Source: an uncultured Fidelibacterota bacterium (GTDB lineage: Bacteria > Fidelibacterota > Marinisomatia > Marinisomatales > UBA1611). Taken from it: a stretch of 64,000 nucleotides of DNA. Shown here one piece after another: positions 7,541 to 42,165 of this stretch (positions are counted from its first letter, which is position 1; every line of letters begins with the position of its first letter). The stretch lies in the NCBI GenBank assembly GCA_950068325.1, contig CATMHQ010000001.1, positions 12,433 to 76,432 of the forward strand. Reading direction: 5' to 3'. Under the pieces are notes generated by a model that worked only from the letters and a program-made list of their open reading frames with translations, was not told where the DNA came from and searched no databases. Position numbers and translations under genes: made by a program.

Positions 7541-9193
7541 ATGAAAAAAATTCTAATACTTCTATCAATCACTATTGTTTTTGGAGAAAAATTCAATCCT
7601 GAATTAATGAACCTTGGAAAGCGAGATAACCATTATCGAGTCTGGATCTATTTCCATGATAAAATTGGTTCTGAAATGAGTCCTATTTCCCAAAGAGCAA
7701 AAGACCGTAGAGCAAAAAGTGATGTGCAATCGAACCATCTTTGGTATGACTTGGAAGTCTCCCAAATCTATATTAATGACATATTAGAATTGGGTATTAC
7801 TATTGAAAATGAAAGTCGCTGGCTCAATGCTGTATCTGTGGTGTGCAAAATGTCTGATATCGAAAAAATAGCTAAACTCAAAAGTGTAAAAAAAATTGAA
7901 CCGGTGATTGGTTATAAAAAATCAAAAATTGAATATGCTGAGGATTTCCTCTCCAATTCCCGTGATTTTGATTATGGGAATGCCTTGGCTCAGATTGAGC
8001 AGATCAATGTCCACGAATTGCATAATGCAGGCTACACTGGAGAAGGTGTTATTATTTTAGTCATGGATACTGGATTTAACCTGACACACAATGCTTTGGC
8101 CAATATAAATGTGATCGCCCAATGGGATGTGATTAATAACGACAGCGAAACAGCAAATGAAACATCCGCCGAGACTAGCAATAGTCAGGATTATCATGGC
8201 ACCGCCGTTTTATCTACCATCGCAGCTTACGCACCGGGAGAATTGATTGGCGTTGCTTTTGATGCGGAATTTCTCCTAGCCAAAACAGAAGATGTAACGC
8301 AAGAAGTTCAACAGGAAGAAGATAATTATATTGCAGGTTTAGAATGGGGCGAAGCCAATGGCGCTGATGTGGTTTCTACATCTTTAGGTTATTTAGATTG
8401 GTACACTTATGAAGATATGGATGGAAATACGGCAGTTACCACTATTGGGATAGATATTGCTGTTGGGCTTGGAATGGTTTGTGTCACAGCTGCTGGGAAT
8501 GAGGGGAATGATCAAAATTGGTATTATATTATTGCCCCAGCTGATGCCGATTCAGTGATCGCCGTTGGTGCTGTTGGAGAAAATGGTGTAATTGCGAGTT
8601 TCAGCTCTCATGGACCCACATTTGACGGAAGGATTAAACCAGAAGTTTGTGCCCGGGGATCTTACACTTGGTGCATCAATCCAAATTCAACCACTACGTA
8701 TTCTCAATTGAGTGGTACATCATTGGCATGTCCGTTGGTTGGCGGTGCAGTTGCTTTAATCATACAAGCGCAGCCAGGCTGGAGTGCGATGCAAGTGCGG
8801 GAAGCGATCCTGATGACAGCATCACAATCAAGTGACCCGGATAATACCTATGGGTATGGAATCATGGATGCTGCTTCTGCCGTTGAATATGAGCAAACGA
8901 CTGCAATTGATGATTCTAAGGGTATCCCAAATACATTTCATATTACAAAAACTTACCCCAACCCATTTAACCCATTTCTAACAATTGATGTTTCCGGTTT
9001 GGTTGGCTCCTACTTAACTGTGGACATTTTTTCTTTGTATGGCCAATCTATTGCCAACATTTACGAGGGGACTTTATTTCAATCCAGTCAGAGACTGACA
9101 TGGGTACCTGAAAATATTCCCAGCGGTATTTATTTGCTTCGGTCGGTTTTAAATGATCATGTAAAATTTCAAAAGATAACCTTCCTTAAATAA
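7541..9193 (+). CDS. Secreted S8 subtilisin-like serine protease with a C-terminal sorting domain
   Basis: Catalytic DTG, HGTAV and GTSLACP; AAGNEG; YPNPFNP...SGIY...KITFLK tail. Confidence 0.92.
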   Translation: MKKILILLSITIVFGEKFNPELMNLGKRDNHYRVWIYFHDKIGSEMSPISQRAKDRRAKSDVQSNHLWYDLEVSQIYINDILELGITIENESRWLNAVSVVCKMSDIEKIAKLKSVKKIEPVIGYKKSKIEYAEDFLSNSRDFDYGNALAQIEQINVHELHNAGYTGEGVIILVMDTGFNLTHNALANINVIAQWDVINNDSETANETSAETSNSQDYHGTAVLSTIAAYAPGELIGVAFDAEFLLAKTEDVTQEVQQEEDNYIAGLEWGEANGADVVSTSLGYLDWYTYEDMDGNTAVTTIGIDIAVGLGMVCVTAAGNEGNDQNWYYIIAPADADSVIAVGAVGENGVIASFSSHGPTFDGRIKPEVCARGSYTWCINPNSTTTYSQLSGTSLACPLVGGAVALIIQAQPGWSAMQVREAILMTASQSSDPDNTYGYGIMDAASAVEYEQTTAIDDSKGIPNTFHITKTYPNPFNPFLTIDVSGLVGSYLTVDIFSLYGQSIANIYEGTLFQSSQRLTWVPENIPSGIYLLRSVLNDHVKFQKITFLK

Positions 9194-9270: not shown

Positions 9271-11040
9271 ATGAAAAGCAAAATCAAATTTATCTCACTG
9301 CAAGCCATCTTTGTTTTTGGACTGGTTGAGGCTGTACAGCCCCAAACAGGGGATTTGCATGCTTATCCCGTCGATGTCTCTATTTATGATGGCCAAGGAT
9401 CTCTATTGATCGAATGGTCCTATCCCGATACGATCCTTGCAAATCAGGTCCGAATTTTCGTTCAGGAATCCGGCCAATTTGATTTTGAATTATTAACAGT
9501 ATTAACACTAGATCAAGATATTTACCTCGATCTTCGATGTGAACCGAATGCCAGATATTTTTATAAAATTGAAATAGAAGATACCTTTGGGACTGTTTTT
9601 ACTAGTGATACTAAAACACCAGCATTTGGCACCTGCTTGACTATTGAAGATTCGTTGGCATTTGATCCGAAAATTGGAACTGTTCAAGATTTGGTATTAT
9701 CTCAAATCTTAGGGCAAGCATTGAGCACAGACTTGTATGGGAATTTCCAGCCAATCGTTGATTTATTAAAATTGACAAAACGAGTTAAATACATTTGGTT
9801 TGAAAATTACCCCATCGAATTACTAAAAACAGCCGAACAGTCTCTTCAAATCATTGAAGAAATCATCCCAAGTTCCGAATTGATTGATAAAGTTTTAGCC
9901 CATGAGTCCATTTACCGCAATCATTTTTTAATGAATCCTGACATTTGGCAATCAGAAGTTGAAAAAGCGGTAGCCGCTATTAGAGGTCAATGGAATCTTT
10001 TGTATTCAGAATATCCAAAGGCGATAGAAATGTTGGAAACAACTGCACCCATTCGAATCATTGGCTATAAGATTACGGAAGAAAATCAAAAGGAATTGGA
10101 GCTTTACATATTCCACCCTGATCAGATCAGTTCATCTGAATTATTTCTTCTCTCCGGTGATGAATATGTGAACCTGGGTGAATACCAAAATGAGCACGAA
10201 CCAATGTTCAAGGTAATCGTTCCGAATCATTGGATCACTGTTGACCTGATGATGGATGATATTTTTATTCAAACGTGTCCACTTATTTTTGATGAATCGA
10301 TTTATTTTACCTTGAATGGTGATTTTATTCCAAAGGATGATCAAATGATTATGAGAGTTGGACTATCTGAAACATCTCTGTGGCTCAATGAATTGACCTG
10401 GAACCCTTATACGAAAAATCTCCATCTTGAAGTAGCAGGGAATCCGGAATATGAAGACCAATATTCATTTGTGCTTAAGGGTGAAATAATTTGGGACCTT
10501 GAAACATTCCCCGGTTTCGAGATACAATATCAAGATTCATCCCTCATGCTTGAAGTAGAAATTGAATATCCGATACTCATTTCCTTCATGAAAAATGAGG
10601 GTGAAGAAACATCAACGCTTGAGTATATTTTATTGGACACCCTCCCGGTTGCGATCAGTCGGATGCCTGATGGCGGCCCTTGGCATTATACAGAATCAAC
10701 CACCCTGGGGATCACCAACAAGCCCATCAAAGATTCCTTTGAAACAGACTTGCTTCCGGAATTATTTGTACTCTACCAAAATTATCCGAATCCATTTAAT
10801 GGACAAACCCGTATCACATTTGATCTTTTGGAAGATGCGACTGTTTCATTGTATATCACGGATGCGACGGGGCGGATCCATGACAAATTTATGGAGAATG
10901 AATTCATCACTTCGGGAAATTACAATTATAATTGGAATGGGGAAGGTCGCTCCACAGGCATTTACTTTTTCACGATTCAGGCGCAGGTTGATCAAAGGCC
11001 TCCGGCGATCTTTAGCCGTAAAATGATCTATTTGAAATAA
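9271..11040 (+). CDS. Secreted hypothetical protein with an FN3-like N-terminus and a T9SS/FlgD-type C-terminal sorting domain
   Basis: Signal peptide; C-terminal LYQNYPNPFN...WNG..STGIYF...RKMIYLK. Confidence 0.75.
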   Translation: MKSKIKFISLQAIFVFGLVEAVQPQTGDLHAYPVDVSIYDGQGSLLIEWSYPDTILANQVRIFVQESGQFDFELLTVLTLDQDIYLDLRCEPNARYFYKIEIEDTFGTVFTSDTKTPAFGTCLTIEDSLAFDPKIGTVQDLVLSQILGQALSTDLYGNFQPIVDLLKLTKRVKYIWFENYPIELLKTAEQSLQIIEEIIPSSELIDKVLAHESIYRNHFLMNPDIWQSEVEKAVAAIRGQWNLLYSEYPKAIEMLETTAPIRIIGYKITEENQKELELYIFHPDQISSSELFLLSGDEYVNLGEYQNEHEPMFKVIVPNHWITVDLMMDDIFIQTCPLIFDESIYFTLNGDFIPKDDQMIMRVGLSETSLWLNELTWNPYTKNLHLEVAGNPEYEDQYSFVLKGEIIWDLETFPGFEIQYQDSSLMLEVEIEYPILISFMKNEGEETSTLEYILLDTLPVAISRMPDGGPWHYTESTTLGITNKPIKDSFETDLLPELFVLYQNYPNPFNGQTRITFDLLEDATVSLYITDATGRIHDKFMENEFITSGNYNYNWNGEGRSTGIYFFTIQAQVDQRPPAIFSRKMIYLK

Positions 11041-32829: not shown

Positions 32830-33783
32830 ATGGCACTCCCTAAATCTATCCAATCTGCAGCAACCCAAATCCAACCCTTTATCCGAAAAACGCCATTTAT
32901 TCATTCGAAAGCATTTTCAGAATTAACGGGAGCGGATGTTTGGTTCAAGTTGGAGAGTTTTCAGATCACTGGTTCGTTCAAAGCAAGGGGCGCAACAAAC
33001 AAACTATTATCCTTAACTGATGAAGAAAAAGCCAATGGCGTTGTGTCTGCTTCAACCGGGAATCATGGTGCCGCTGTGGCCTATGCTGCAGGGAAACTGG
33101 GGATTGATTGCACCATTTATGTTCCGGATGATGTGTCTGCAGCCAAGTTGGAAAATATGAAGCAATTTGGCGCTAAGATCGAAGTTCATGGTGATGATTG
33201 TATCAAAGCTGAAGCCAAAGCCCGAGAGGTTTCGGAAGAATCCGGGAAGATTTATATATCGCCTTACAACGATCCCTTCGTCATGGCAGGACAAGGAACA
33301 ATCGGAGTGGAGATTGAATCCCAATGCCAAGGATTGGATGCCATTATTATTTCCGTTGGTGGTGGCGGACTTATTGGCGGAACAGCCAGTTATTTAAAAT
33401 CCGTCTGGCCGGAAATAAATATGATCGGCTGTTCGCCAGAAAATTCCGCGGTGATGATTCATTCCATAAAAGCGGGGAGAGTGTTGACCCTGGAATCCAA
33501 ACCCACTTTATCTGATGGAACTGCTGGCGGCGTGGAAAAGGATTCTATCACATTTCCCATATGCCAAACCGTTATTGATGAATCTGTATTAGTGACCGAG
33601 GATGAAATAAAACAAGCCATGATTTTATACATTGAAAAGGAACATCAATTGTTAGAAGGCGCCGCCGGAACCGCAGTAGCAGCCCTGGTAAAAAAGAAAG
33701 ATGACCTAAAAGGCAAGCGCGTGGGTGTTGTCATCTGTGGGGGGAACATCAGTTTGGATACTATTCGGGAACTTTTAAAATGA
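32830..33783 (+). CDS. PLP-dependent threonine/serine dehydratase (catabolic type, no ACT domain)
   Basis: KLESFQITGSFKARGA, ASTGNHG, SVGGGGLIGG, ICGGN. Confidence 0.9.
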   Translation: MALPKSIQSAATQIQPFIRKTPFIHSKAFSELTGADVWFKLESFQITGSFKARGATNKLLSLTDEEKANGVVSASTGNHGAAVAYAAGKLGIDCTIYVPDDVSAAKLENMKQFGAKIEVHGDDCIKAEAKAREVSEESGKIYISPYNDPFVMAGQGTIGVEIESQCQGLDAIIISVGGGGLIGGTASYLKSVWPEINMIGCSPENSAVMIHSIKAGRVLTLESKPTLSDGTAGGVEKDSITFPICQTVIDESVLVTEDEIKQAMILYIEKEHQLLEGAAGTAVAALVKKKDDLKGKRVGVVICGGNISLDTIRELLK

Positions 33784-36700
33784 TCATTGCTATGAATTCT
33801 TTTCTTCGAATTTTAACCATCATTTTTGTCCTATCTCTTCTTTTCGCTGAGGAGACCAAAGAGAAAAGTTCAATTCACTCCGATCCATTTCGGTATTCAT
33901 CCGCTGGCAAGATCGGGGATAATCCTTTCCCAACCAATCCCATGAATGACAGGGCTATTGGCTATTTACTCCAGGGGAAAGCCCAAACAGCCATTTCCAA
34001 TTATGGAAATATCATTAATTGGGATGAACACCCAATGGGTATCTGGAATGGCTTTTCCTATTTACCTTCCGTTGCATTCCTCGCTGGGGTTCCGGGGCAT
34101 AAACATTCCTTCGAATTCAATTGGGAAAATGTGGAATATATTGTGGATCCTGAGGGAATTCCCCTCTATGGTATTTGGGAATCAAGTACTGCCTATAACG
34201 ATTGGTTTTTAGAAGGCGATACGAATTATGTGGGCATCATTTTTAATGCAGACCAGGATTTTGGGCGCTGGTATCCAGACAGTATTTCGCAAAAAGCATC
34301 CAAAGAATTATTTGATGGACCCTATCAATATGCCATTGATCATGAATTGAAAAAAATTGCAGTGTCCACTTTTGGTGAATTGGATCCCAATACATCCAGC
34401 GCGCAGATTGGATTCATTTATCCCTGGGCCCTACGCCCAAAATTGATCCAGCGGGAAGACCAATTTGATTATTACAATTATGGGCTGGACTTGGAAGAAT
34501 GGACCGCGGATGATGAATACATGTATTATGGATATAACGTTGCGGAATCCTGGATCTCACGTCAGCAGAGTTCCCCCAATGGAGAATGGCATGCCTCCAC
34601 CATGGCCAGGGTGAACACTCACAATACGGAAGTGCTCAATGGTGATATATTTGGCGATACCTATGTGACGGATCCCAGCGACACCTATCCGCTTTTGGCA
34701 CACAGCGCTTTTTCCGATACCTGGCCGATTCGATATAATGAAAACTTGGGACAGACTGAATCGTTTTGGCCGGGTTGGTGGGCAGAAGATTACAACATCA
34801 ACCTTCCGGGATGTTCTCAATCCAGGAAAGATCCGGACTGCTGGGAAAGTGTCGATGGCCGATTCATTTCCAATATGGAGGTCTATATGGAATTTGATGA
34901 TCGCTGGGCGCACCGGGGCAATATGGTGGATACAAATAATGAATACGAGCAAACAGCTTATCCAATGGGGCTGCGCGTGATGGCAGAAGCCCATTCTTAT
35001 GGTGTGTCCTATGCAGAGGATATTTTATTTGTGACGGTGAAAGTCCGCAATGAAAGTGGCGATTGGTGCGCTGAAGATGAATTTGGAAATCCCGTATTGG
35101 ATGAATACGGTGAGCAAAAATGCGGTGAAGGCATGATTATGCCCGATGGTACCAAACTCAATCATGGCAAAGGATTTAATTACCAGGGTACCTTTCTGGG
35201 ATTCTATTTTGATTCAGATGTTTTGACCGGTGATATATATGGATTCAGTTCCGGACTCCATACGAATGATGACGATTTCATGAAATACTATTGGGAAATA
35301 TTCGAACGGAATAATGAACGAATGTTGATCTCCATGGCCATGGTGGGAGATTTTGACGGTATCAGTGGTCAAGCCCGTGGCTATGCCATGAGCGGTGAAC
35401 CTTCTCCAGGAACTGATTTTGGACTGGTGGCAACCCAATTATTAGATTCACCCCGAGCCACCGATCCGGTTGACTTGGATCAGGATGGCACCGTTGATAT
35501 TTTCCCTGGAGAACCTTTGAAAATGACAGACTGGCATTGGTTCGATTGGTACAGTCGCCCCGGTGTGGTGAATATGGAAAGTAATACCAGCAGTTGCTAT
35601 GCCGGGGCTCTGGGCTGTCCACAAGCCCGGAACAAGGAAGAAATCATGTACAAGATCATGGCCGGTGATACAACAAATTTGAATGATAATGAGCATGCCT
35701 GGCACTTTCACACGAAAAATCCCGGAACCGATCTGGGATCCGAGTTGAACCCGCACTTTGATTCATTGGAAGGCCTATACGAGGAAACGGCTTTTTTAAG
35801 GGAACCCCCTGGATTGGATTGTTCCATTTTTATGAGTTGCGGTCCGTTTGATCTGCCCGTTGGGAGGGAAGTGCCTTTTTCATTCTGCATAATTTTTGGA
35901 CAAAATGAAGAAGATTTGATCAACAATGCCCGCTTTGCCCAGGTCATGTATAATTCACGGTACCAGGGATTCACACCGCCCACACGTCCCAATGTTTATG
36001 TGGAAACAGATACGGGCGCTGTCAAGATCTATTGGGATGATGTTGCAGAAGGTTCCGTTGATGTTCTCACAGGTTATTCAGATTTTGAAGGATACAAGAT
36101 TTACAAAAGCCTCGATGGCGGAAAAACCTGGGGAGACGCATCAGGCCGTATTTATGATACGGATGGCTTGTTTGTGGGCTGGCGGCCTTACCGCCAATTT
36201 GATCTATCTGCAGAAAAGGACTCTCTCCATTGTGTTTATTCCAATTTATATGATTGTGAAAAGGAAAATCGACGAAATCACAGCATCCAAGGTGAAGATC
36301 CCTATTTCCCCTGGTTCAGTCTGGGGGAAGATACAGGATTCGACTTGATCCTGTTAAATGAAGTCGAGTGGAAAATTGTGAATGGGGATACCTTTCAATA
36401 CATGTTTACGGACCAGAATGTGGTGGATGGTTTGGAATATACCTATTCAGTTGTATCCTACGATATGGGTGTAGAACCAACCTACATCTCAAAATTTGTC
36501 CCCATGGGTAACGGGCAATATGAATCCGTGTTGGATACAAATTATTCAAACCCGAACGAATGGGCAAACCCGGAGGGCTATGCTTCTATTGAGAATTCCA
36601 AAGGTACAACCATTTTGGATCGAAATTTTGTCCAGGCATTTCCGGGAATTCAACCCCGCGAAAACCTCAGCAAGGTCAATGTTGTCCCGAATCCATATAT

Positions 36701-36977
36701 TGTGCGGTCAAATTTCAAGGAGACGGAATTCCTGCGACGGATTCGGTTCACCAATCTGCCGACCAAATGCAAGATCAAAATTTTCACGGTGTCGGGGGAA
36801 CTTGTGGCAGAACTGGATCATGAAAGTGAAACGACTGGAAATGAATGGTGGGATATGCGAACGGTGAACAACCAGGAAATAGCACCGGGACTTTATTTGT
36901 ATCATATTCAACAAATTGATCCGGAATCAGAAAAAATGATGGCAGACCTTGTGGGCAAATTTGCAGTGGTCCGATAA
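33780..36977 (+). CDS. Large secreted hypothetical protein with a PNPY/FTNLP/KFAVVR-type C-terminal domain
   Basis: Signal peptide; FN3-like DFEGYKIYKS and YTYSVVSYD; C-terminal VVPNPY...IRFTNLP...IFTVSGELV...WDMRT...GKFAVVR. Confidence 0.8.
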   Translation: MIIAMNSFLRILTIIFVLSLLFAEETKEKSSIHSDPFRYSSAGKIGDNPFPTNPMNDRAIGYLLQGKAQTAISNYGNIINWDEHPMGIWNGFSYLPSVAFLAGVPGHKHSFEFNWENVEYIVDPEGIPLYGIWESSTAYNDWFLEGDTNYVGIIFNADQDFGRWYPDSISQKASKELFDGPYQYAIDHELKKIAVSTFGELDPNTSSAQIGFIYPWALRPKLIQREDQFDYYNYGLDLEEWTADDEYMYYGYNVAESWISRQQSSPNGEWHASTMARVNTHNTEVLNGDIFGDTYVTDPSDTYPLLAHSAFSDTWPIRYNENLGQTESFWPGWWAEDYNINLPGCSQSRKDPDCWESVDGRFISNMEVYMEFDDRWAHRGNMVDTNNEYEQTAYPMGLRVMAEAHSYGVSYAEDILFVTVKVRNESGDWCAEDEFGNPVLDEYGEQKCGEGMIMPDGTKLNHGKGFNYQGTFLGFYFDSDVLTGDIYGFSSGLHTNDDDFMKYYWEIFERNNERMLISMAMVGDFDGISGQARGYAMSGEPSPGTDFGLVATQLLDSPRATDPVDLDQDGTVDIFPGEPLKMTDWHWFDWYSRPGVVNMESNTSSCYAGALGCPQARNKEEIMYKIMAGDTTNLNDNEHAWHFHTKNPGTDLGSELNPHFDSLEGLYEETAFLREPPGLDCSIFMSCGPFDLPVGREVPFSFCIIFGQNEEDLINNARFAQVMYNSRYQGFTPPTRPNVYVETDTGAVKIYWDDVAEGSVDVLTGYSDFEGYKIYKSLDGGKTWGDASGRIYDTDGLFVGWRPYRQFDLSAEKDSLHCVYSNLYDCEKENRRNHSIQGEDPYFPWFSLGEDTGFDLILLNEVEWKIVNGDTFQYMFTDQNVVDGLEYTYSVVSYDMGVEPTYISKFVPMGNGQYESVLDTNYSNPNEWANPEGYASIENSKGTTILDRNFVQAFPGIQPRENLSKVNVVPNPYIVRSNFKETEFLRRIRFTNLPTKCKIKIFTVSGELVAELDHESETTGNEWWDMRTVNNQEIAPGLYLYHIQQIDPESEKMMADLVGKFAVVR

Positions 36978-36986
36978 TGGATAAAA

Positions 36987-39944
36987 ATGTTTAAGAAATT
37001 TTTTACAGTTTTTCTCTTGGCTTTTCTTTTTGGACAAACCCAATCCCAAAAACAAATTCTCAAATCTCAATCTGAAACATTGATTTCAAAATCCCGGGCA
37101 GAAAAAAAGATTGCGGTAGAAAAAGCAAATCAAAAGAGGTGGCCCATTAAAGGGAAATTGGAAAACGGGGAAGAATATTCAATTCAGCGATTAGCACCAA
37201 ATGGCAAACCCATTTACTATCATTCGGAAAACTTTATCTCTGCGAAAACAATTTCAACCGATCATCTTTGGCCCGATGGTGACAGCCAATTATTTATGAA
37301 AGGTGAAGGCATGATCGTGGGCGAATGGGATGGAGGTGCCACGCGGGCTACACACGACGAATTAACCGGAAGAGTTGTTCAGGTTGATGGTGCAGAGGAA
37401 TTGAGTAATCATGCCACCCATGTAGCTGGAACCATGATTGGTGCAGGTATATATAATTTGGCTCACGGCATGGCCAACGCAGCCACATTACACACAAATG
37501 ATTGGAATGAGGACAGTGGCGAAATGGCCGCCCAGGCAGGAGACGGATTGATTCTTTCCAATCATTCTTATGGACAACGGGGCGGGTGGCATTGGAATTC
37601 GCTTGGGGATGATAAATGGGTTTGGTGGGGCGATCCGGGTGTGGATGTAAACGAAGATTACCATTTTGGATTTTATGATGAACAAACCCGGGAATGGGAT
37701 GAAATTGCCTACAATGCGCCTCATTATTTAATCGTCATGTCTGCGGGAAATGACCGCAATGATGAAGTTGCAAATGGGACGGAACATTGGGTATGGAATA
37801 CAGTCATTAATGATTGGGATTTATCCACAGATTCACGGGACCCAGATGGGTCCTGGGACTGTATTTCTTACCATAAAATTTGTAAAAATGTATTAACCGT
37901 TGGGGCTGTAAATGATATTGAAAATGGGTATGAAAATCCCGGTGATGTGAGTATTTCATCTTTCAGTTCTTACGGTCCTGTTGATGACGGAAGAATCAAA
38001 CCGGATATTGTTGCCAATGGTGTAGGACTTTTTTCTTCTGTCAGCACCGGTGACCAAGATTATGAATCCTATTCCGGAACATCTATGTCTGCACCCAGTG
38101 TTACCGGATCCTTGGTGTTGTTTCAGGAAATGTATAAAACCATGAATGACACATTTTTACTCGCTGCCACCTTGAAAGCATTGGCGGTCCACTCAGCAGA
38201 TGAAGCTGGGAATGCGGGTGGTCCCGATTATCGATTTGGCTGGGGACTTATGAATACCGCCCGTGCAGTAGACCTGATCCAGAGAAACGGGAATGGACAT
38301 TTGATCTCCGAAGAATACCTTGCCCCTGGAGATAGTATTGAATTGTCTGTTTATTCGGATGGTATGGTGCCCTTGAGAGCCACGATCTCATGGACAGATC
38401 CACCGGGAATACCACCATTACCGAGTTTAAATCCACAGGATATCATGCTGGTGAATGATCTGGATTTGAGAATTATTGGTGAAGATGGAACCATATATTT
38501 CCCATGGATACTGGATCCAAATAATCCCGGTGATGCGGCCACCACGGGCGACAATATAGTGGACAATGTGGAACAGGTTTTGATCTTCGATCCAGAACCG
38601 GGGAATTATACAATCAGGATTTGGCATAAAGGAAACATTGACGATGGGCAAGCATTTGGATTGGTTTTATCCTTTGGAACTTCCGGTCCCATGACCTTTT
38701 ATGTATCACCTGAGGGCAATGATGATACGGGAGATGGATCGGAAGAGAATCCATTTTCATCCATCCAAAAAGCGGTGGATGAATCGATTTCCCGAGACAC
38801 TATTCTTGTTGCTCCCGGAACTTATAATGGCTCTATTGAGATCAATTCAAAGGGAATTATTTTAGCATCCCATTTTATTCATTCCGATGATGAAACGTAC
38901 ATTGCTGGAACAGTCCTCACAAATAATGAACCCAATCCGATTCTATATTTACATCAGACTGGAACTGCCATGGTTGTGAAAGGATTCACATTTTCGTTTG
39001 GTGCATTGTATGGGGATAATAGCATCGAATGTACCTCCGGAAATATAACCATTGAAAATTGTGTTTTTACTCAAACTGGATCTGATTCAGATTGCGGTGC
39101 TATAAGCTTTGGGAGTAGTCATGGCATTATTAATAATTCGCGAATAGAAAATATGTCCGGATGTTTTTTTGGAGCTTTATATGTTTACAATTCAAATGTG
39201 GAACTAGATCATTTTTCGATCATCAATACAAATGGATCCAGTCATATCATTTATTCACAGGATTCCCAGATAGATATGAATTTTGTAACACTTTCCGGGA
39301 ATTCCGTTGATGAAGATTATAGTATTATCCGTATGTATGATGGATCAGAATTGAATGTGATCAATTCAATCTTATGGAATGAAGGAGCAACAGAAATTGC
39401 TTTCAGGGTTCAGGGCGAAGGAAATTTTGCGACCATTTATTATACCGATTTAAATGGTCATATTAATGGCATCGAAACCAATGATAACGGAACCACAAAT
39501 TTTGGATTATTCAATGTGATGGAAACCGATCCACTCTTTTGTGCCCCCGACAGCAACGGTTTTCAATTGTCCGGGAATTCGCCTTGTGCAGATTATTCGG
39601 AAAATGGCGGACCCATTGGGGCTTTTGGTGTTGGCTGTGATTTTGTTGGTATTGGAGATCTAGCGTCTGTCCCGGGTGAATTTCAATTATTCCCGGCTTA
39701 TCCCAACCCCTTCAACACAAGCACAACGATCCGGTTTAATATTGGGGTAGAGACGTTGCATGCAACGTCTCTACAAATATTCGATATAACCGGTCGTGTG
39801 GTTGAAACATTGGTAGATGGAGTGATTGATCCTGGTGAGCATGAGGTTGTTTGGGATGCGTCTGGATTTTCCAGTGGTGTATATTTCGCCAAATTCGTCT
39901 CCGGGAAAAATCGCCAGGTTCAGAAAATGATTTTGTTGAAATAA
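36987..39944 (+). CDS. Secreted S8 serine protease with a DUF1565/beta-helix region and a C-terminal sorting domain
   Basis: EWDGG, HATHVAGT, SAGND, SGTSMSAP; YVSPEGNDDTGDGS...PFSSIQKA; YPNPFN...QKMILLK. Confidence 0.9.
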   Translation: MFKKFFTVFLLAFLFGQTQSQKQILKSQSETLISKSRAEKKIAVEKANQKRWPIKGKLENGEEYSIQRLAPNGKPIYYHSENFISAKTISTDHLWPDGDSQLFMKGEGMIVGEWDGGATRATHDELTGRVVQVDGAEELSNHATHVAGTMIGAGIYNLAHGMANAATLHTNDWNEDSGEMAAQAGDGLILSNHSYGQRGGWHWNSLGDDKWVWWGDPGVDVNEDYHFGFYDEQTREWDEIAYNAPHYLIVMSAGNDRNDEVANGTEHWVWNTVINDWDLSTDSRDPDGSWDCISYHKICKNVLTVGAVNDIENGYENPGDVSISSFSSYGPVDDGRIKPDIVANGVGLFSSVSTGDQDYESYSGTSMSAPSVTGSLVLFQEMYKTMNDTFLLAATLKALAVHSADEAGNAGGPDYRFGWGLMNTARAVDLIQRNGNGHLISEEYLAPGDSIELSVYSDGMVPLRATISWTDPPGIPPLPSLNPQDIMLVNDLDLRIIGEDGTIYFPWILDPNNPGDAATTGDNIVDNVEQVLIFDPEPGNYTIRIWHKGNIDDGQAFGLVLSFGTSGPMTFYVSPEGNDDTGDGSEENPFSSIQKAVDESISRDTILVAPGTYNGSIEINSKGIILASHFIHSDDETYIAGTVLTNNEPNPILYLHQTGTAMVVKGFTFSFGALYGDNSIECTSGNITIENCVFTQTGSDSDCGAISFGSSHGIINNSRIENMSGCFFGALYVYNSNVELDHFSIINTNGSSHIIYSQDSQIDMNFVTLSGNSVDEDYSIIRMYDGSELNVINSILWNEGATEIAFRVQGEGNFATIYYTDLNGHINGIETNDNGTTNFGLFNVMETDPLFCAPDSNGFQLSGNSPCADYSENGGPIGAFGVGCDFVGIGDLASVPGEFQLFPAYPNPFNTSTTIRFNIGVETLHATSLQIFDITGRVVETLVDGVIDPGEHEVVWDASGFSSGVYFAKFVSGKNRQVQKMILLK
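39747..39774. repeat. GTAG-family REP palindrome inside a CDS (copy 1)
   Basis: GTAGAGACGTTGCA|TGCAACGTCTCTAC is a perfect 28-bp palindrome and encodes VETLHATSL. Confidence 0.92.
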
Positions 39945-39967
39945 ACCATGAAATCTTGGTAAATGAA

Positions 39968-40510
39968 ATGATGAATTTTTTAAACTGTAATATTTGGAAC
40001 AATTATCCAAATGAGATTGAGGATAAATATAGCAATATAGAATTTAATTATGGCAATATTCAAGGCGGTTGGGAAGGGGTAGGCAATATAGATTCCAATC
40101 CACTTTTTTGTGAGCCCGATAGTGGCGATTATTTTTTAGCAGAAAATTCTCCCTGTGTTGGCACAGGAATAGATGGCGCAAACATGGGTGCATTTGGAAT
40201 TGGGTGCGATGCACTTTCTGTTTTAGTAGAATTGACCCTACCAAAATTTACCCTTTTCCCGGCTTATCCCAACCCGTTCAACCCAACCACCACAATCCGG
40301 TTTATTAATTCAGTAAAGACGTGGCACGCCACGTCTCTACATATATATGACATAACCGGTCATCTTGTTGCAACACTGGTGAATGGCAAAATTGAAACAG
40401 GTTTTCATGAAATTCAATGGGATGCATCGTTTGTTGCCAGTGGTGTATATTTTGTAGAATTGACATTGGATAACCAATAAAAAATTCAAAAAATAATCTT
40501 ATTAAAATAG
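39968..40510 (+). pseudogene. 5'-truncated secreted-protein fragment (DPLFC module plus sorting domain) with a premature TAA
   Basis: No signal peptide; paralogous to the 3' end of the upstream gene. The in-frame TAA at 40478-40480 is followed by KIQKIILLK-TAG (40481-40510). Confidence 0.8.
40313..40340. repeat. GTAG-family REP palindrome inside a CDS (copy 2)
   Basis: GTAAAGACGTGGC-AC-GCCACGTCTCTAC encodes VKTWHATSL. Confidence 0.9.
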
Positions 40511-40521
40511 ACGGCACTTTT

Positions 40522-42165
40522 ATGAGACAGATATTTATTTCCATCATCTTCCTGAATGTTCTTTCAGCGCAATCCTCCACTTGGGATATTATCCAAGATA
40601 CGATTTGGACACCGAAGTGTGTAGTATGTCATGATCATGGGCTTTATTTTGCAGAACAATCAGGGTTAATCCTGGCTGAAGATGTGGCCTATGAAGAAAT
40701 AATCAATGTAATGCCAAACAATTCTGCCGCAGCTGAAGATGGCCTCTTATTGGTGGGAACAGAAGGCATAACCAGTGTTTATTCCAGTTTTCTCTGGGAA
40801 AAGATTAATGCCAATGATTACGAACATTTTTACCAAGAACATCCTGAATATGGAAACCTCATGCCCCTGGGAATGGCATTTCTCACCAATGGGGAATTGG
40901 AATTCATCCGCCAATGGATCATCGCCGGCGCACCGGAAACCGGCGAAGTAGTTGATGCAAATCTTTTAGACGATACAACCGTTTTTGAATTGCCGGAATT
41001 CGTACCCCTTCCATTACCGGAGAATGGCGTTCAATTTCATTTAGGTCCTTTTGAAGTACCACCCCAATTCGAAAGAGAATTATTCTACTACACAGAAGTT
41101 GATACTCAGGGCATCCTTTTTGTGAATCGAATCGAAACTGCCTTGGCGCCTGGAAGTCACCATTTTATTGTTTACACCTATGATGATGACCTTCCATTTC
41201 AATTGCCTGAATTAAATATTATTCGCGATTTACGATATCCGGATGGGAGCTACAACCAGTATGTTTTATATTACATGGCTTTCCAAAAATTTATTACCGG
41301 GACACAAACCCGGTTTTTTGACTATAGACTCCCTGAAGGTGTTGCCCTAAGAATTGATCCGTCTTTTGGATTTGACTTGAACGTTCATTATCCCAATTAT
41401 TCCAACGAAACAATCATTGGGGAGGTTTATAACAATTATCACTTTGTTGATTCAACCGAGGTGGATCATATCGGAAAGATCCTGCAGTTGGATAAATTTG
41501 ACATTGTATTACCACCCGGTGAAGAGACCACATTGAATAAAATATTTTGGATGGATGAAGCAATTGGGGAAACCATTTCCATTTTTCAATTATGGTCTCA
41601 TGCCCATAAGCATAATATCAATTTCAAGGTTTTTCGGGTGAGCCAAACCGATCCTGATTATCAGGAATTGGTTTATCTGGCTCTGGACTGGGATCATCCA
41701 CCGATCATAGAATATGATCCACCCATGGTTTTTCATGAAGGTGATGGTCTTGAACTGGAAGCGACCTTTTACAATGATACAGATGAGGAAATCAATTTTG
41801 GATTGTTGAGCACGGACGAAATGATGATTCTGTTTGGATTGTATTATGAGGGTGAAGAATTGGCAACGGATGATAATGTTGAACCTCTACCTACCGAATT
41901 TGGAATCATGAAAATTTATCCAAACCCATTCAACCCAAGCACCACAATCCGGTTTGATACTCCGGTAGTAGAGACTCGATTTATCACGTCTCTACAAATA
42001 TTTGACATAACCGGGCATTTGGTGGAAACGTTGATAGATGGAACAGCCGAACCGGGAACACATGAAATTCAATGGAATGCATCTAGGCAATCCAGCGGGA
42101 TTTATTTTGTGCGGTTGCAAAGCCGTGAATTTGTGGAAACACAGAAAATTGTGCTGGTGAAATGA
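40522..42165 (+). CDS. Secreted c-type cytochrome / copper type II (PHM/DBH-like) monooxygenase fusion with a C-terminal sorting domain
   Basis: Signal peptide; CVVCH (33-37), GNLMP..WI.AGA; GSHH (213-214), VHY (289), SHAH (360/362), EMM (434); YPNPFNP tail. Confidence 0.8.
   Translation: MRQIFISIIFLNVLSAQSSTWDIIQDTIWTPKCVVCHDHGLYFAEQSGLILAEDVAYEEIINVMPNNSAAAEDGLLLVGTEGITSVYSSFLWEKINANDYEHFYQEHPEYGNLMPLGMAFLTNGELEFIRQWIIAGAPETGEVVDANLLDDTTVFELPEFVPLPLPENGVQFHLGPFEVPPQFERELFYYTEVDTQGILFVNRIETALAPGSHHFIVYTYDDDLPFQLPELNIIRDLRYPDGSYNQYVLYYMAFQKFITGTQTRFFDYRLPEGVALRIDPSFGFDLNVHYPNYSNETIIGEVYNNYHFVDSTEVDHIGKILQLDKFDIVLPPGEETTLNKIFWMDEAIGETISIFQLWSHAHKHNINFKVFRVSQTDPDYQELVYLALDWDHPPIIEYDPPMVFHEGDGLELEATFYNDTDEEINFGLLSTDEMMILFGLYYEGEELATDDNVEPLPTEFGIMKIYPNPFNPSTTIRFDTPVVETRFITSLQIFDITGHLVETLIDGTAEPGTHEIQWNASRQSSGIYFVRLQSREFVETQKIVLVK
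41968..41995. repeat. GTAG-family REP palindrome inside a CDS (copy 3)
   Basis: GTAGAGACTCGAT-TT-ATCACGTCTCTAC (2 stem mismatches) encodes VETRFITSL. Confidence 0.85.

What the first reader, a model, noticed from the sequence alone, without database searches (positions are those of the whole stretch)
39690..42165. Secretion-signal cassette with a REP palindrome built into its reading frame, on three unrelated neighbouring genes
Seen: three consecutive genes (S8 protease, a truncated fragment, the cytochrome-Cu monooxygenase) end in nucleotide-similar ~260-bp sorting domains. Each has a 28-bp GTAG...CTAC palindrome at the same site: 39747 GTAGAGACGTTGCATGCAACGTCTCTAC, 40313 GTAAAGACGTGGCACGCCACGTCTCTAC, 41968 GTAGAGACTCGATTTATCACGTCTCTAC, encoding VETLHATSL, VKTWHATSL, VETRFITSL. 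The inner arms differ between copies but mostly stay complementary (TTGC/GCAA, TGGC/GCCA, GAT/ATC), which points to constraint on the hairpin rather than on the peptide. The sorting domains near 8950, 10780 and 57860 lack it, and those near 10780 and 57860 are about 2 aa shorter here. Established: GTAG-headed REPs are substrates of HUH/Y1 TnpA(REP)/RAYT nucleases and are normally extragenic; in-frame palindromes in proteins are known from Rickettsia RPEs. Inference: a REP was domesticated into a subfamily of sorting domains and may act as a nicking/recombination hotspot that moves the export tag onto new cargo genes.
Basis: partly seen in the sequence, partly recalled or inferred. Interest (0 to 1): 0.87.

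Follow-up and report, generated by a model that had tools for sequence, protein, structure and literature searches.

The report
Mobile DNA palindrome inside secretion tags
A small mobile DNA hairpin (a REP element, found here in many bacterial phyla) sits in frame in one loop of the secretion tag of many exported proteins of this marine bacterium; it is best read as a tolerated, decaying passenger, not as a device that moves the tags.

Summary
Three 28-nt GTAG...CTAC palindromes lie in frame at window 39747, 40313 and 41968, in the same loop of three T9SS C-terminal sorting domains (CTDs); shuffles expect none. The palindrome fits the published "double-foot" REP of subclass 2.4 REP-associated tyrosine transposases (RAYT/TnpA-REP). 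The same 28-mer frame occurs in many phyla, with variable but complementary inner arms (88 of 128 sites fully so). It also lies in frame inside the RAYT gene itself. This genome's copy of that gene is broken.

Fourteen of the genome's 67 CTDs carry this REP or a second REP class at the same site. Pairing ranges from 14/14 down to 7/14, so the copies are decaying. The DNA is conserved, not the peptide: all 27 sites able to encode VETLHATSL in 201 related genomes lie within 1 nt of the palindromic codons.

Orthologous genes carry different REP states between conserved flanks, so the REP segment turns over in place. The one CTD recombination that I could map in the window crossed over about 110 nt downstream of the REP. 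The "export-tag mover" idea is therefore unsupported. Verdict: a new variant of a known kind, of moderate interest.

The parts
36987..39944 (+). S8 subtilase gene (985 aa) with a C-terminal T9SS sorting domain
   Evidence: Peptidase_S8 E 1.2e-30; Por_Secre_tail at residues 905-982
39681..39941 (+). CTD 1 (87 aa), a T9SS type A sorting domain
   Evidence: AlphaFold model: pLDDT 82.3, six strands. PDB profile hit to T9SS CTD chains (8glk_D, E 3e-4)
39747..39774 (.). REP copy 1, a perfect 28-nt double-foot palindrome. It encodes V23-L31 of the CTD, i.e. the beta1-beta2 turn plus the start of beta2
   Evidence: 14/14 pairs; DNA hairpin -12.2 kcal/mol, z -7.8; strands 14-21 and 28-35
39873..39886 (+). 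SGVYF-coding motif in CTD 1, one side of a CTD x CTD recombination joint. The start-to-start spacing to its twin is 566 nt
   Evidence: 566-nt spacing; switch of similarity to the G002 orthologue
39968..40480 (+). Fragment pseudogene: a 5'-truncated paralogue piece plus CTD 2, ended by a premature TAA. The last ~70 nt (through the old stop at 40508-40510) are orthologous to the tail of the G002 S8 gene
40313..40340 (.). REP copy 2 (12/14 pairs; GTAA foot in this assembly)
   Evidence: -8.3 kcal/mol. In run X4 the contig over this place reads G at 40316, which gives GTAG
40439..40452 (+). SGVYF-coding motif in CTD 2, the other side of the recombination joint
40522..42165 (+). 547-aa secreted protein with a CVVCH motif, a weak Cu2_monoox_C match and a CTD
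41899..42162 (+). CTD 3
41968..41995 (.). REP copy 3 (11/14 pairs; outer arms intact, inner arm decayed). The G009 orthologue carries a near-intact variant with a different inner sequence at the same site
   Evidence: (-5.8 kcal/mol)

Best explanation
The palindromes are copies of a REP family found here in many phyla. This is the 'double-foot' REP (5' GT[AG]G ... C[TC]AC 3') that goes with subclass 2.4 REP-associated tyrosine transposases (TnpA-REP/RAYT).

In this marine Fidelibacterota (Marinimicrobia) lineage, one such REP sits in the loop between strands beta1 and beta2 of a short-type T9SS type A sorting domain. It is tolerated there for two reasons. Two of its three frames are open. In the VET...TSL frame, the 5' arm and centre encode a surface turn, and the 3' arm encodes T-S-L, which stands in for the usual x-S/V-L start of beta2.

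From there it has been carried onto many unrelated cargo proteins as CTDs duplicated and recombined with each other. A second REP class (GTAGGGGAC...GTCCCCTAC) occupies the same site in other CTDs.

Shown: the REP identity, the RAYT link, conservation at DNA level, the location in the fold, decay in this genome, turnover of the REP segment between orthologues, and one CTD x CTD crossover away from the REP.

Inferred: the copies in this genome are passengers that no longer move, because the cognate RAYT is broken. Replacement of REP states happens mainly by gene conversion among the many CTD paralogues. Complementarity of the arms is kept up by a DNA-level process, either the RAYT's need for a stem or template-switch symmetrisation of quasi-palindromes, and not by selection on the secreted proteins.
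For: (1) REP identity and spread.
The record titles name Bacteroidota, Cyanobacteria, Chloroflexi, Acidobacteria, Ignavibacteria, Zixibacteria and others.
- Of 128 sites, the inner 10-mer is fully self-complementary in 88, has 4 of 5 pairs in 30, and fewer pairs in 10. There are 70 distinct inner sequences. My own arithmetic puts chance for 5 of 5 at about 0.1%.
- Quentin et al. [quoted passage not shown]

(2) RAYT link.
- G000 C65:947-1416 is a RAYT-like ORF with PNHVH and a perfect REP in frame (SRDVARNVST). It is broken by a TGA and a TAA placed before the YINLNP motif.
- Intact homologues in G008 and G009 carry GRDVACNVST.
- Of the top 120 among 7471 homologues, 65 have RDxxxxVST, 10 the VET frame, 13 a mixed frame and 32 none by these strict patterns.

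(3) DNA, not peptide.
- A degenerate pattern for any codons of VETLHATSL found 27 sites in 19 of 201 genomes of the order. All lie within 1 nt of the palindromic 26-mer, and the reversed-pattern controls gave 0.
- Seven CTDs from 5 genomes share the REP (6 identical 28-mers, one with 1 nt changed). Their downstream 144 nt are 56% identical on average, and only 45% of conserved residues use the same codon. Caveat: these seven were picked by their arms.

(4) Place in the fold. The model has pLDDT 82.3, with strands at 14-21 and 28-35; REP residues 23-31 cover the turn and the start of beta2.

(5) Abundance and decay.
- 14 of 67 PF18962 hits in G000 carry class A (9) or class B (5), plus one further CTD (C29:2997) that is not among the 67.
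- In the 16 copies scored, pairing runs from 14/14 to 7/14.

(6) Turnover in place.
- S8 orthologues: G000 has a perfect class A REP. G002 has a 40-nt decayed long form, with almost the same 14 nt before it and the same 30 nt after it. G014 has class B. G017 and G015 have none.
- Monooxygenase orthologues: five different states in G000, G002, G008, G009 and G051.

(7) Recombination not at the REP. The tail of the fragment matches the G002 S8 tail, and similarity switches at the SGVYF motif.

(8) The secretion system is present. A SprA translocon gene is in G000 (722.8 bits; cut-off 200).
Against: - Identical consensus 28-mers sit in CTDs of four families whose flanks are only about 56% identical. 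Pure passive inheritance with decay does not explain this. It needs recent re-seeding, conversion or selection.
- Two REP classes at one site, and REP-only differences between near-identical flanks, could equally be read as targeted replacement by an enzyme.
- The genome is only 79% complete, so an intact subclass 2.4 RAYT could have been missed.
- An intact RAYT of another type is present on C78.
- The CTD tree is too poorly resolved (6 of 62 inner branches starred) to count gains and losses.
- No test of secretion, of hairpin formation or of transcript effects was possible.
Confidence: 0.68

Rival explanations
1. Cassette exchange by the transposase. Subclass 2.4 RAYTs cut at both feet and replace one REP hairpin by another at an already occupied site. 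Under this view the CTD loop is a REP landing pad, and perfect consensus copies are young.
For: - S8 orthologues differ only in the segment bounded by the REP feet, while the flanks are almost the same (14 nt before, 1 difference; 30 nt after, none): class A in G000, a decayed long form in G002, class B in G014.
- Consensus 28-mers sit in strongly diverged CTDs.
- The RAYT's own internal copy has the same TTGCATGCAA variant in G008 and G009.
- Intact RAYTs exist in relatives.
Against: - Gene conversion among the many CTD paralogues gives the same picture, and the flanks are too alike to tell tract ends.
- G008 has an intact RAYT, yet its monooxygenase REP is decayed.
- G000's RAYT is broken.
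- No biochemical data exist for this subclass.
Confidence: 0.17
2. One reading: the REP is a nicking and recombination hotspot that moves the export tag onto new cargo genes.
For: - The same REP-bearing CTD type is on unrelated cargo: S8, peptidyl-arginine deiminase, C25, LVIVD and endonuclease/exonuclease/phosphatase family proteins.
- Orthologous cargo carries different CTD types.
- REP-bearing CTD genes lie next to each other (window; G009 C10 and C15).
Against: - The mapped CTD x CTD crossover lies at SGVYF, about 110 nt from the REP.
- CTDs without a REP are also swapped on orthologous cargo: the long-type CTDs in G013, G049 and G015.
- The RAYT in this genome is a pseudogene.
Confidence: 0.06
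3. The hairpin acts in the mRNA, as a pause site, a stabiliser or a processing site, and is selected for that role in secreted-protein genes.
For: - The hairpins are stable.
- REPs are proposed to act in RNA (Di Nocera 2013, PMC3733652; abstract and discussion passages read).
Against: - Pairing decays to 7-11 of 14 in many copies.
- The mismatches are not mainly G:T: 9 G:T against 15 A:C over the 16 copies scored.
- The same element is common outside genes and on either strand.
- Only contigs, not reads, were available for the RNA runs.
Confidence: 0.06
4. The peptide VET...TSL is what matters, for example for recognition by the T9SS, and the palindrome is incidental.
For: T-S-L fits the usual beta2 pattern of CTDs.
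Against: - All 27 sites that could encode VETLHATSL use the palindromic codons, give or take 1 nt.
- Class B encodes a different peptide (VGDAIMRPL) at the same site.
- The same DNA occurs outside genes and in the other frame inside RAYTs.
- 53 of 67 CTDs in this genome lack either REP class.
Confidence: 0.03

Closest known systems
Double-foot REPs of TnpA-REP (RAYT) subclass 2.4 (Quentin et al. 2018, BMC Genomics, PMC6006769)
   Same: - GT[AG]G at the 5' end and its complement at the 3' end.
- A long stem.
- Low copy number.
- The phyla named in that paper (Cyanobacteria, Bacteroidetes and various others).
- Inserted in frame in the tnpAREP gene between HuH and Y, which is exactly what C65, L011 and L154 show.
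   Different: - Here most copies of one genome sit inside one protein domain, the T9SS CTD, at one loop: 15 of 18 copies.
- Two REP classes share that site.
- In the passages I read, that paper does not mention sorting domains. Its Additional file 1, Figure S10, was not visible to me.
Intragenic GTAG/CGTC REPs (Di Nocera et al. 2013, BMC Genomics, PMC3733652)
   Same: REPs lying wholly inside ORFs of known proteins, argued there to be tolerated in loops or linkers.
   Different: - That paper describes scattered single insertions, many of them in replication and repair genes.
- Here one repeated export domain is colonised and the REP spreads with it.
- The string GTAGAGAC does not occur in that paper's main text. 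Its Additional file 3, the list of target ORFs, was not visible to me.
Rickettsia palindromic elements (RPEs), cited in PMC3733652
   Same: Palindromic repeats inserted in frame in functional genes.
   Different: By recall, RPEs are longer (about 100-150 bp), restricted to Rickettsia and not linked to a RAYT. I made no sequence comparison.
T9SS type A C-terminal sorting domain (PF18962 / TIGR04183)
   Same: The host domain is an ordinary member: C-terminal, a six-strand beta sandwich, with the PNPF and G-x-Y-F motifs and a terminal K.
   Different: The beta1-beta2 loop is about 2 residues longer (class A) or 4 longer (class B) and is encoded by a REP.
Rfam whalefall-1 motif (RF01762)
   Same: The central hairpin of the model (AGAG.C...GC.UGC...G.CUC) lines up with the REP stem.
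   Different: The score is 17.9 bits against a gathering score of 37, and only model positions 23-45 of 56 match. It is not a member by Rfam's threshold. That the motif may be a relative of this REP is only a lead.
Cyanobacterial small dispersed repeats (Elhai et al. 2008, Genome Res; recalled, paper not held)
   Same: By recall: very small (21-27 nt) mobile hairpin repeats in Nostocales, where one search also finds this REP.
   Different: I could not check whether any SDR family is the same sequence.

Membership tests
T9SS type A C-terminal sorting domain (PF18962) | Profile match above the curated cut-off, at the very C-terminus | tested here: met
   41.6, 38.5 and 42.3 bits (cut-off 27) at the ends of the three ORFs
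T9SS type A C-terminal sorting domain (PF18962) | Ig-like beta-sandwich fold related to solved CTDs | tested here: met
   model with six strands, pLDDT 82.3; profile hits to 8glk_D (E 3e-4) and to the gingipain CTD 5hfs_A (E 0.008). No fold search was run
T9SS type A C-terminal sorting domain (PF18962) | T9SS machinery in the same genome | tested here: met
   SprA (TIGR04189), 722.8 bits summed in a 2165-aa open frame on C27. Other components were not searched
T9SS type A C-terminal sorting domain (PF18962) | Secretion and removal of the CTD | not testable with these tools
   Needs experiment
REP, double-foot type of RAYT subclass 2.4 | 5' GT[AG]G foot and 3' C[TC]AC foot around a stem | tested here: met
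   GTAG...CTAC, with 14, 12 and 11 of 14 pairs
REP, double-foot type of RAYT subclass 2.4 | Stem kept through covarying changes across copies | tested here: met
   88 of 128 sites have 5 of 5 inner pairs, with 70 distinct inner sequences
REP, double-foot type of RAYT subclass 2.4 | Dispersed copies outside genes | tested here: met
   Relatives: of the 32 sites examined, 19 are neither in a CTD nor in a RAYT, mostly in G032 and G038. In G000 itself only 2 of 18
REP, double-foot type of RAYT subclass 2.4 | Cognate RAYT gene that carries or is flanked by the REP | tested here: met
   C65 pseudogene; intact genes in G008 and G009, REP in frame
REP, double-foot type of RAYT subclass 2.4 | High copy number (over 100 per genome), as in classical enterobacterial or pseudomonad REPs | tested here: not met
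   1-15 exact copies per genome and about 18 in G000. The low number agrees with the published figures for subclass 2.4, not with classical REPs
REP, double-foot type of RAYT subclass 2.4 | Binding and cleavage by the RAYT | not testable with these tools
   Needs biochemistry
RAYT / TnpA-REP subclass 2.4 | The motifs NH[IFV]H, WQ and YIxNNP | tested here: met
   PNHVHGI, KWQSRFYDH and YIIQNP (G008); YIQNNP (G009). The motif list comes from the table in PMC6006769
RAYT / TnpA-REP subclass 2.4 | Curated profile cut-offs | tested here: inconclusive
   Pfam Y1_Tnp 23.4 bits against a cut-off of 23. NCBIfam NF047646 REP_Tyr_transpos 61.2 bits, below its cut-off of 80
RAYT / TnpA-REP subclass 2.4 | Intact gene in this genome | tested here: not met
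   a TGA and a TAA inside C65:947-1416; the TAA truncation before the Y motif is shared by P0008, a cluster with 47 member sequences
Rfam whalefall-1 (RF01762) | Score at or above the gathering threshold | tested here: not met
   17.9 bits against 37

The most novel reading that the evidence does not exclude
Double-foot REPs are exchangeable cassettes. The subclass 2.4 transposase cuts at both GTAG feet and swaps hairpins at sites that already hold a REP. Under this reading, the beta1-beta2 loop of a whole subfamily of secretion tags has become a heritable landing pad where REP classes replace one another. It would also give a natural series of filled, replaced and decayed sites from which the long-unknown way REPs spread could be read.
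Probability: 0.17. Interest if true: 0.75.

Novelty: new variant of a known kind. Interest (0 to 1): 0.5.

Why it matters
How REPs spread is still unsettled (PMC8266576, abstract seen in the listing). Orthologous sorting domains with different REP states between conserved flanks give many natural before-and-after comparisons at one defined site. These could separate transposase action from gene conversion.

For annotation, peptides such as VETLHATSL, VGDAIMRPL and RDVACNVST are by-products of a DNA element. They should not be read as protein motifs.

For T9SS biology, the beta1-beta2 turn of the type A sorting domain tolerates 9 to 17 foreign residues. This marks a permissive site for tags.

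The finding also shows CTD x CTD homologous recombination rebuilding the C-terminus of a secreted protease.

Tried and rejected
- CTD tree against REP class. 65 of the 67 CTDs were used; two fragments (C6:2107 and C18:3675) were dropped, and the REP columns were left out. Only 6 of 62 inner branches were starred and the bootstrap had not settled. REP-bearing and REP-free CTDs interleave, but gains and losses cannot be counted from this tree.

- Reads on the region. All four runs laid were Logan contigs, not raw reads. The joints listed (for example 41968 to 39774, with other letters between) lie at or below the reliability limits the tool states, and they fit paralogous CTDs of other genes or organisms. 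There is no clean recombination junction at the REP and no transcript ends. RNA-run contigs cover parts of the S8 and monooxygenase genes, but this does not show transcription.

- Rfam: nothing reached a gathering score.

- Elhai 2008: not held.

- Literature for REPs in T9SS tags. One search (type IX secretion + C-terminal domain + repetitive extragenic palindrom) returned 1 unrelated paper. One search (Marinimicrobia + palindrom) returned 17 papers; the 8 listed look unrelated by title. One search returned 0. I saw listings only.

- A first count of RAYT internal peptides used a wrong pattern. It was redone.

- Simple 28-nt insertion model: rejected. 28 is not a multiple of 3, and the loop is only about 2 residues longer than in REP-free CTDs.

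- Looser scans also hit palindrome-like stretches in other genes (C9:36278; C109 and C112:2748; and,'s class B scan, C2:27560, C27, C32, C40 and C57). I treated these as chance and left them out of the count of 18.
Full report
**1. The observation**

The window holds three matches to GTAGAGAC-N12-GTCTCTAC at 39747, 40313 and 41968, with 0, 1 and 0 mismatches. One hundred dinucleotide shuffles gave none. All three lie in frame in consecutive + strand ORFs and read VETLHATSL, VKTWHATSL and VETRFITSL.

The ORFs are:
- a 985-aa S8 subtilase;
- a 170-aa fragment;
- a 547-aa protein with a CVVCH motif and a weak copper-monooxygenase match.

Each ends in a Por_Secre_tail domain above Pfam's cut-off. 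The three tails are 70-74% identical in DNA over 122-217 nt. Three other sorting domains in the window lack the palindrome and have a loop about 2 residues shorter.

Watson-Crick pairing is 14/14, 12/14 and 11/14. Predicted DNA hairpin energies are -12.2, -8.3 and -5.8 kcal/mol. Copy 2 differs from copy 1 by one compensatory T-A to G-C pair. The inner arm of copy 3 is only half paired.

**2. What the palindrome is**

The window is G000:C1:12433-76432 in a 2.2-Mb, 41% G+C assembly that is 79% complete. Sources name the close protein relatives Fidelibacterota, Marinimicrobia or Neomarinimicrobiota.

Exact GTAGAGACG-N(8-12)-CGTCTCTAC occurs in 11 of 41 genomes of the order, G000 included, at 1-15 copies each. 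The reversed-pattern controls gave 0. Their record titles name Bacteroidota, Nostocales and other Cyanobacteria, Anaerolineae, Acidobacteria, Ignavibacteria, Zixibacteria, Planctomycetes, Desulfuromonas and others.

In those loci there are 128 sites. The inner 10-mer is fully self-complementary in 88, has 4 of 5 pairs in 30, and fewer in 10. There are 70 different inner sequences. So the outer 9-nt feet are constant across phyla, while the upper stem varies freely but stays paired.

Quentin et al. 2018 (PMC6006769; sections 13 and 23 and the table passages read) describe this element. REPs of TnpA-REP subclass 2.4 include a "double foot" type with 5' GT[AG]G and 3' C[TC]AC. [quoted passage not shown]

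**3. The transposase**

G000 contig C65:947-1416 encodes such a protein (PNHVHGI ... WQPRFYDH ... YINLNP). A perfect REP lies in frame and reads SRDVARNVST. The ORF is interrupted by a TGA and by a TAA just before the YINLNP motif, which is the Y motif in Quentin's table. A near-identical database protein, P0008 (a cluster of 47 member sequences), has W at the first stop but ends at the same TAA. So the truncation is not an assembly error.

Intact 189-194-aa homologues with GRDVACNVST are present in G008 (same genus) and G009. The G008 protein scores 23.4 bits on Pfam Y1_Tnp (cut-off 23) and 61.2 bits on NCBIfam REP_Tyr_transpos (cut-off 80).

Of the 120 best among 7471 homologues, 65 carry RDxxxxVST, 10 the VET...SL frame, 13 a mixed frame and 32 none by these strict patterns, although many of the 32 look like degenerate versions.

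A second, intact RAYT on C78 is flanked by a different REP, CCTACAGACA..TGTCTGTAGG.

**4. The REP in sorting domains**

G000 has 67 Por_Secre_tail matches.
- Nine carry the class A REP: C1 (three), C56, C61 (two), C29:14499, C11:27579 and C31.
- Five carry a second palindrome, GTAGGGGAC...GTCCCCTA(C/A), which reads VGDAIMRPL at the same site and in the same frame: C2, C4, C11 (two) and C116.
- One more class A copy lies in a CTD not among the 67 (C29:2997).
- Several further loops look like remnants.

Outside CTDs the genome has the RAYT copy and two others, on C49 and C112. So 15 of 18 copies are in CTDs.

Class B is also a true REP. It was found in 7 of 201 genomes of the order: outside genes in family f9, in a RAYT fragment (L181), and in the S8 CTD of G014.

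In relatives there are 34 exact class A sites in 10 genomes. Nine are in CTDs in the VET frame, 4 are in RAYT genes, 19 are in neither, and 2 were not fetched. G032 and G038 hold mostly extragenic copies. The window's own family, G029 and G039 hold mostly CTD copies.

A protein search with CTD 1 gave 582 hits at E up to 1e-5. Among the best 120, 18 have class A, 6 a long form with 8 extra central residues, and 1 class B. About 35 endonuclease/exonuclease/phosphatase family orthologues have VEIRHATSL or VEIQHATSL, which my pattern did not count. The cargo is unrelated: S8, peptidyl-arginine deiminase, C25, LVIVD and endonuclease/exonuclease/phosphatase family proteins. The names given by sources are Marinimicrobia, apart from one 2.6-kb contig labelled Planctomycetia.

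**5. Where it lies in the protein**

An AlphaFold model of CTD 1, built from 16 REP-bearing CTDs, has pLDDT 82.3 and six strands, with beta1 at residues 14-21 and beta2 at 28-35. REP-encoded residues 23-31 are therefore most of the turn (VETLH) plus the first half of beta2 (ATSL). The profile matches solved T9SS CTDs (8glk_D, E 3e-4). A SprA translocon gene is present in the genome.

The third reading frame of the REP contains TAG, which can be read directly from the sequence. So only two frames can survive in a gene, and both are seen: VET..SL in CTDs, and mostly RD..VST in RAYTs.

**6. DNA or peptide?**

A degenerate pattern that allows any codons for VETLHATSL found 27 sites in 19 of 201 genomes. 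Every one lies within 1 nt of the palindromic 26-mer.

Seven CTDs from five genomes and four families share the REP: 6 have the identical 28-mer and one differs by 1 nt. Their next 144 nt are on average 56% identical, and only 45% of conserved residues use the same codon. These seven were picked by their arms, so only the inner 10 nt are an unbiased comparison.

The conserved entity is the DNA.

**7. Decay and turnover**

In G000, pairing in CTD copies runs from 14/14 down to 7/14. This fits loss of the cognate enzyme.

Orthologues show that the REP segment changes while the flanks stay put.

For the S8 gene:
- G000 has the perfect REP.
- G002 (same genus, 76% protein identity) has a 40-nt stretch that reads ISTPLNNLNISL, with almost the same 14 nt before it (1 difference) and the same 30 nt after it.
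- G014 has class B.
- G017 and G015 have none.

For the monooxygenase gene:
- G000 has a decayed copy with inner sequence TCGATTTATCA.
- G009 has an almost intact copy with inner sequence CGATTAATTG.
- G051 has a 52-nt long form.
- G002 has a shortened hairpin whose arms have changed together (AGAGAT/ATCTCT).
- G008 has a remnant.
- Four further genera have CTDs without a REP.

Long forms always add 24 nt (8 residues) at the centre.

**8. Does it move tags?**

The fragment between the two genes gives one resolved event. Its last ~70 nt, through the old stop at 40508-40510, are orthologous to the tail of the G002 S8 gene. The rest is only about 55% like either S8 gene. G000's S8 gene resembles G002's up to the SGVYF motif and not beyond it. 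G002 has no fragment between the two genes.

So two CTDs recombined at the SGVYF-coding motif (39873-39886 and 40439-40452, 566 nt apart). The tail of G017's S8 gene resembles that of G002. This suggests that G000 is the derived state and that the old tail was left behind, now with a premature TAA.

The crossover lies about 110 nt downstream of the REP. Cargo orthologues also swap CTD types that have no REP. CTDs do move, but nothing ties the movement to the REP.

**9. Reading**

The best-supported account is a subclass 2.4 double-foot REP that entered a permissive loop of a sorting domain. It was then multiplied by the expansion and recombination of that domain. In this genome it is decaying, and the cognate RAYT is broken.

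What passive carriage does not explain is the presence of consensus-perfect copies in strongly diverged CTDs, and REP-only differences between near-identical flanks. Gene conversion among the many paralogous CTDs, or exchange by an active RAYT in other lineages, could each account for these. I cannot separate the two with the data at hand.

Arm complementarity could come from the enzyme's need for a stem. It could also come from template-switch correction of quasi-palindromes. That mechanism is recalled from the E. coli literature and was not tested here.

**10. Novelty**

In-frame REPs in genes (PMC3733652) and inside subclass 2.4 RAYT genes (PMC6006769) are published.

I found no paper that links REPs with T9SS sorting domains (searches; listings only).

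The new points are:
- colonisation of one loop of a repeated export domain;
- two REP classes at the same site;
- turnover of the REP segment in place.

I rate it a new variant of a known kind, interest 0.5.

Noticed in passing
G000 contig C78:3660-4410 (outside the window); locus L001: An intact RAYT-like gene (about 150 aa, PDHVH motif) is flanked on both sides by a different REP, CCTACAGACAGGAATGTCTGTAGG. Upstream lie arrays of about 19-nt CCTACAG-type units. A third copy of the hairpin is at C78:5348.
   Followed up: partly
G000 contigs C53:10430-10457 and C6:25181-25208 (outside the window): Two carB-like genes (carbamoyl-phosphate synthase large subunit, by my reading of the translation) hold a GTAG...CTAC palindrome in frame at the same position. 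The C53 copy has GAGAT/ATCTC arms that changed together and reads VEIQNSTSL. The C6 copy looks decayed and reads VEARHTVSL. This may be another in-frame REP.
   Followed up: no
G000 C61:1574-1625 and C29:14541-14592; G051 (L140); proteins P0123, P0130, P0132, P0153, P0154: 'Long forms' of the REP carry exactly 24 extra nt (8 residues) at the centre, with several unrelated insert sequences (RVGNPAVS, ISTPLNN, PRNNRDRG, GFRAESRN). One insert contains its own small hairpin, CCCGCT-GTA-AGCGGG. They may be nested insertions or remnants of REP dimers.
   Followed up: partly
window 40316: In public run X4, the contig over this place reads G where the window has A. This restores the GTAG foot of REP copy 2 in another population.
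   Followed up: no
window 39749-39771: Weak match of the REP stem to the central hairpin of Rfam whalefall-1 (RF01762): 17.9 bits against a gathering score of 37. That metagenomic 'RNA motif' may be related to this REP class.
   Followed up: partly
loci L038 (Melioribacteraceae MAG) and L070 (Bacteroidales MAG): In two other phyla the same REP lies in frame just upstream of a sorting domain, in the linker before the PNPF motif, and not in the beta1-beta2 loop. Other in-frame hosts seen include a FolC-like protein (L051), an AcrB-like protein (L107) and a MoeA-like protein (L128). These names are my reading of the translations only.
   Followed up: no
window 33780-36977: A 1065-aa ORF directly upstream of the S8 gene ends in a different C-terminal motif (NPYIV...LYLYHI...GKFAVVR) that is not a PF18962-type tail. 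It may be another class of sorting signal.
   Followed up: no
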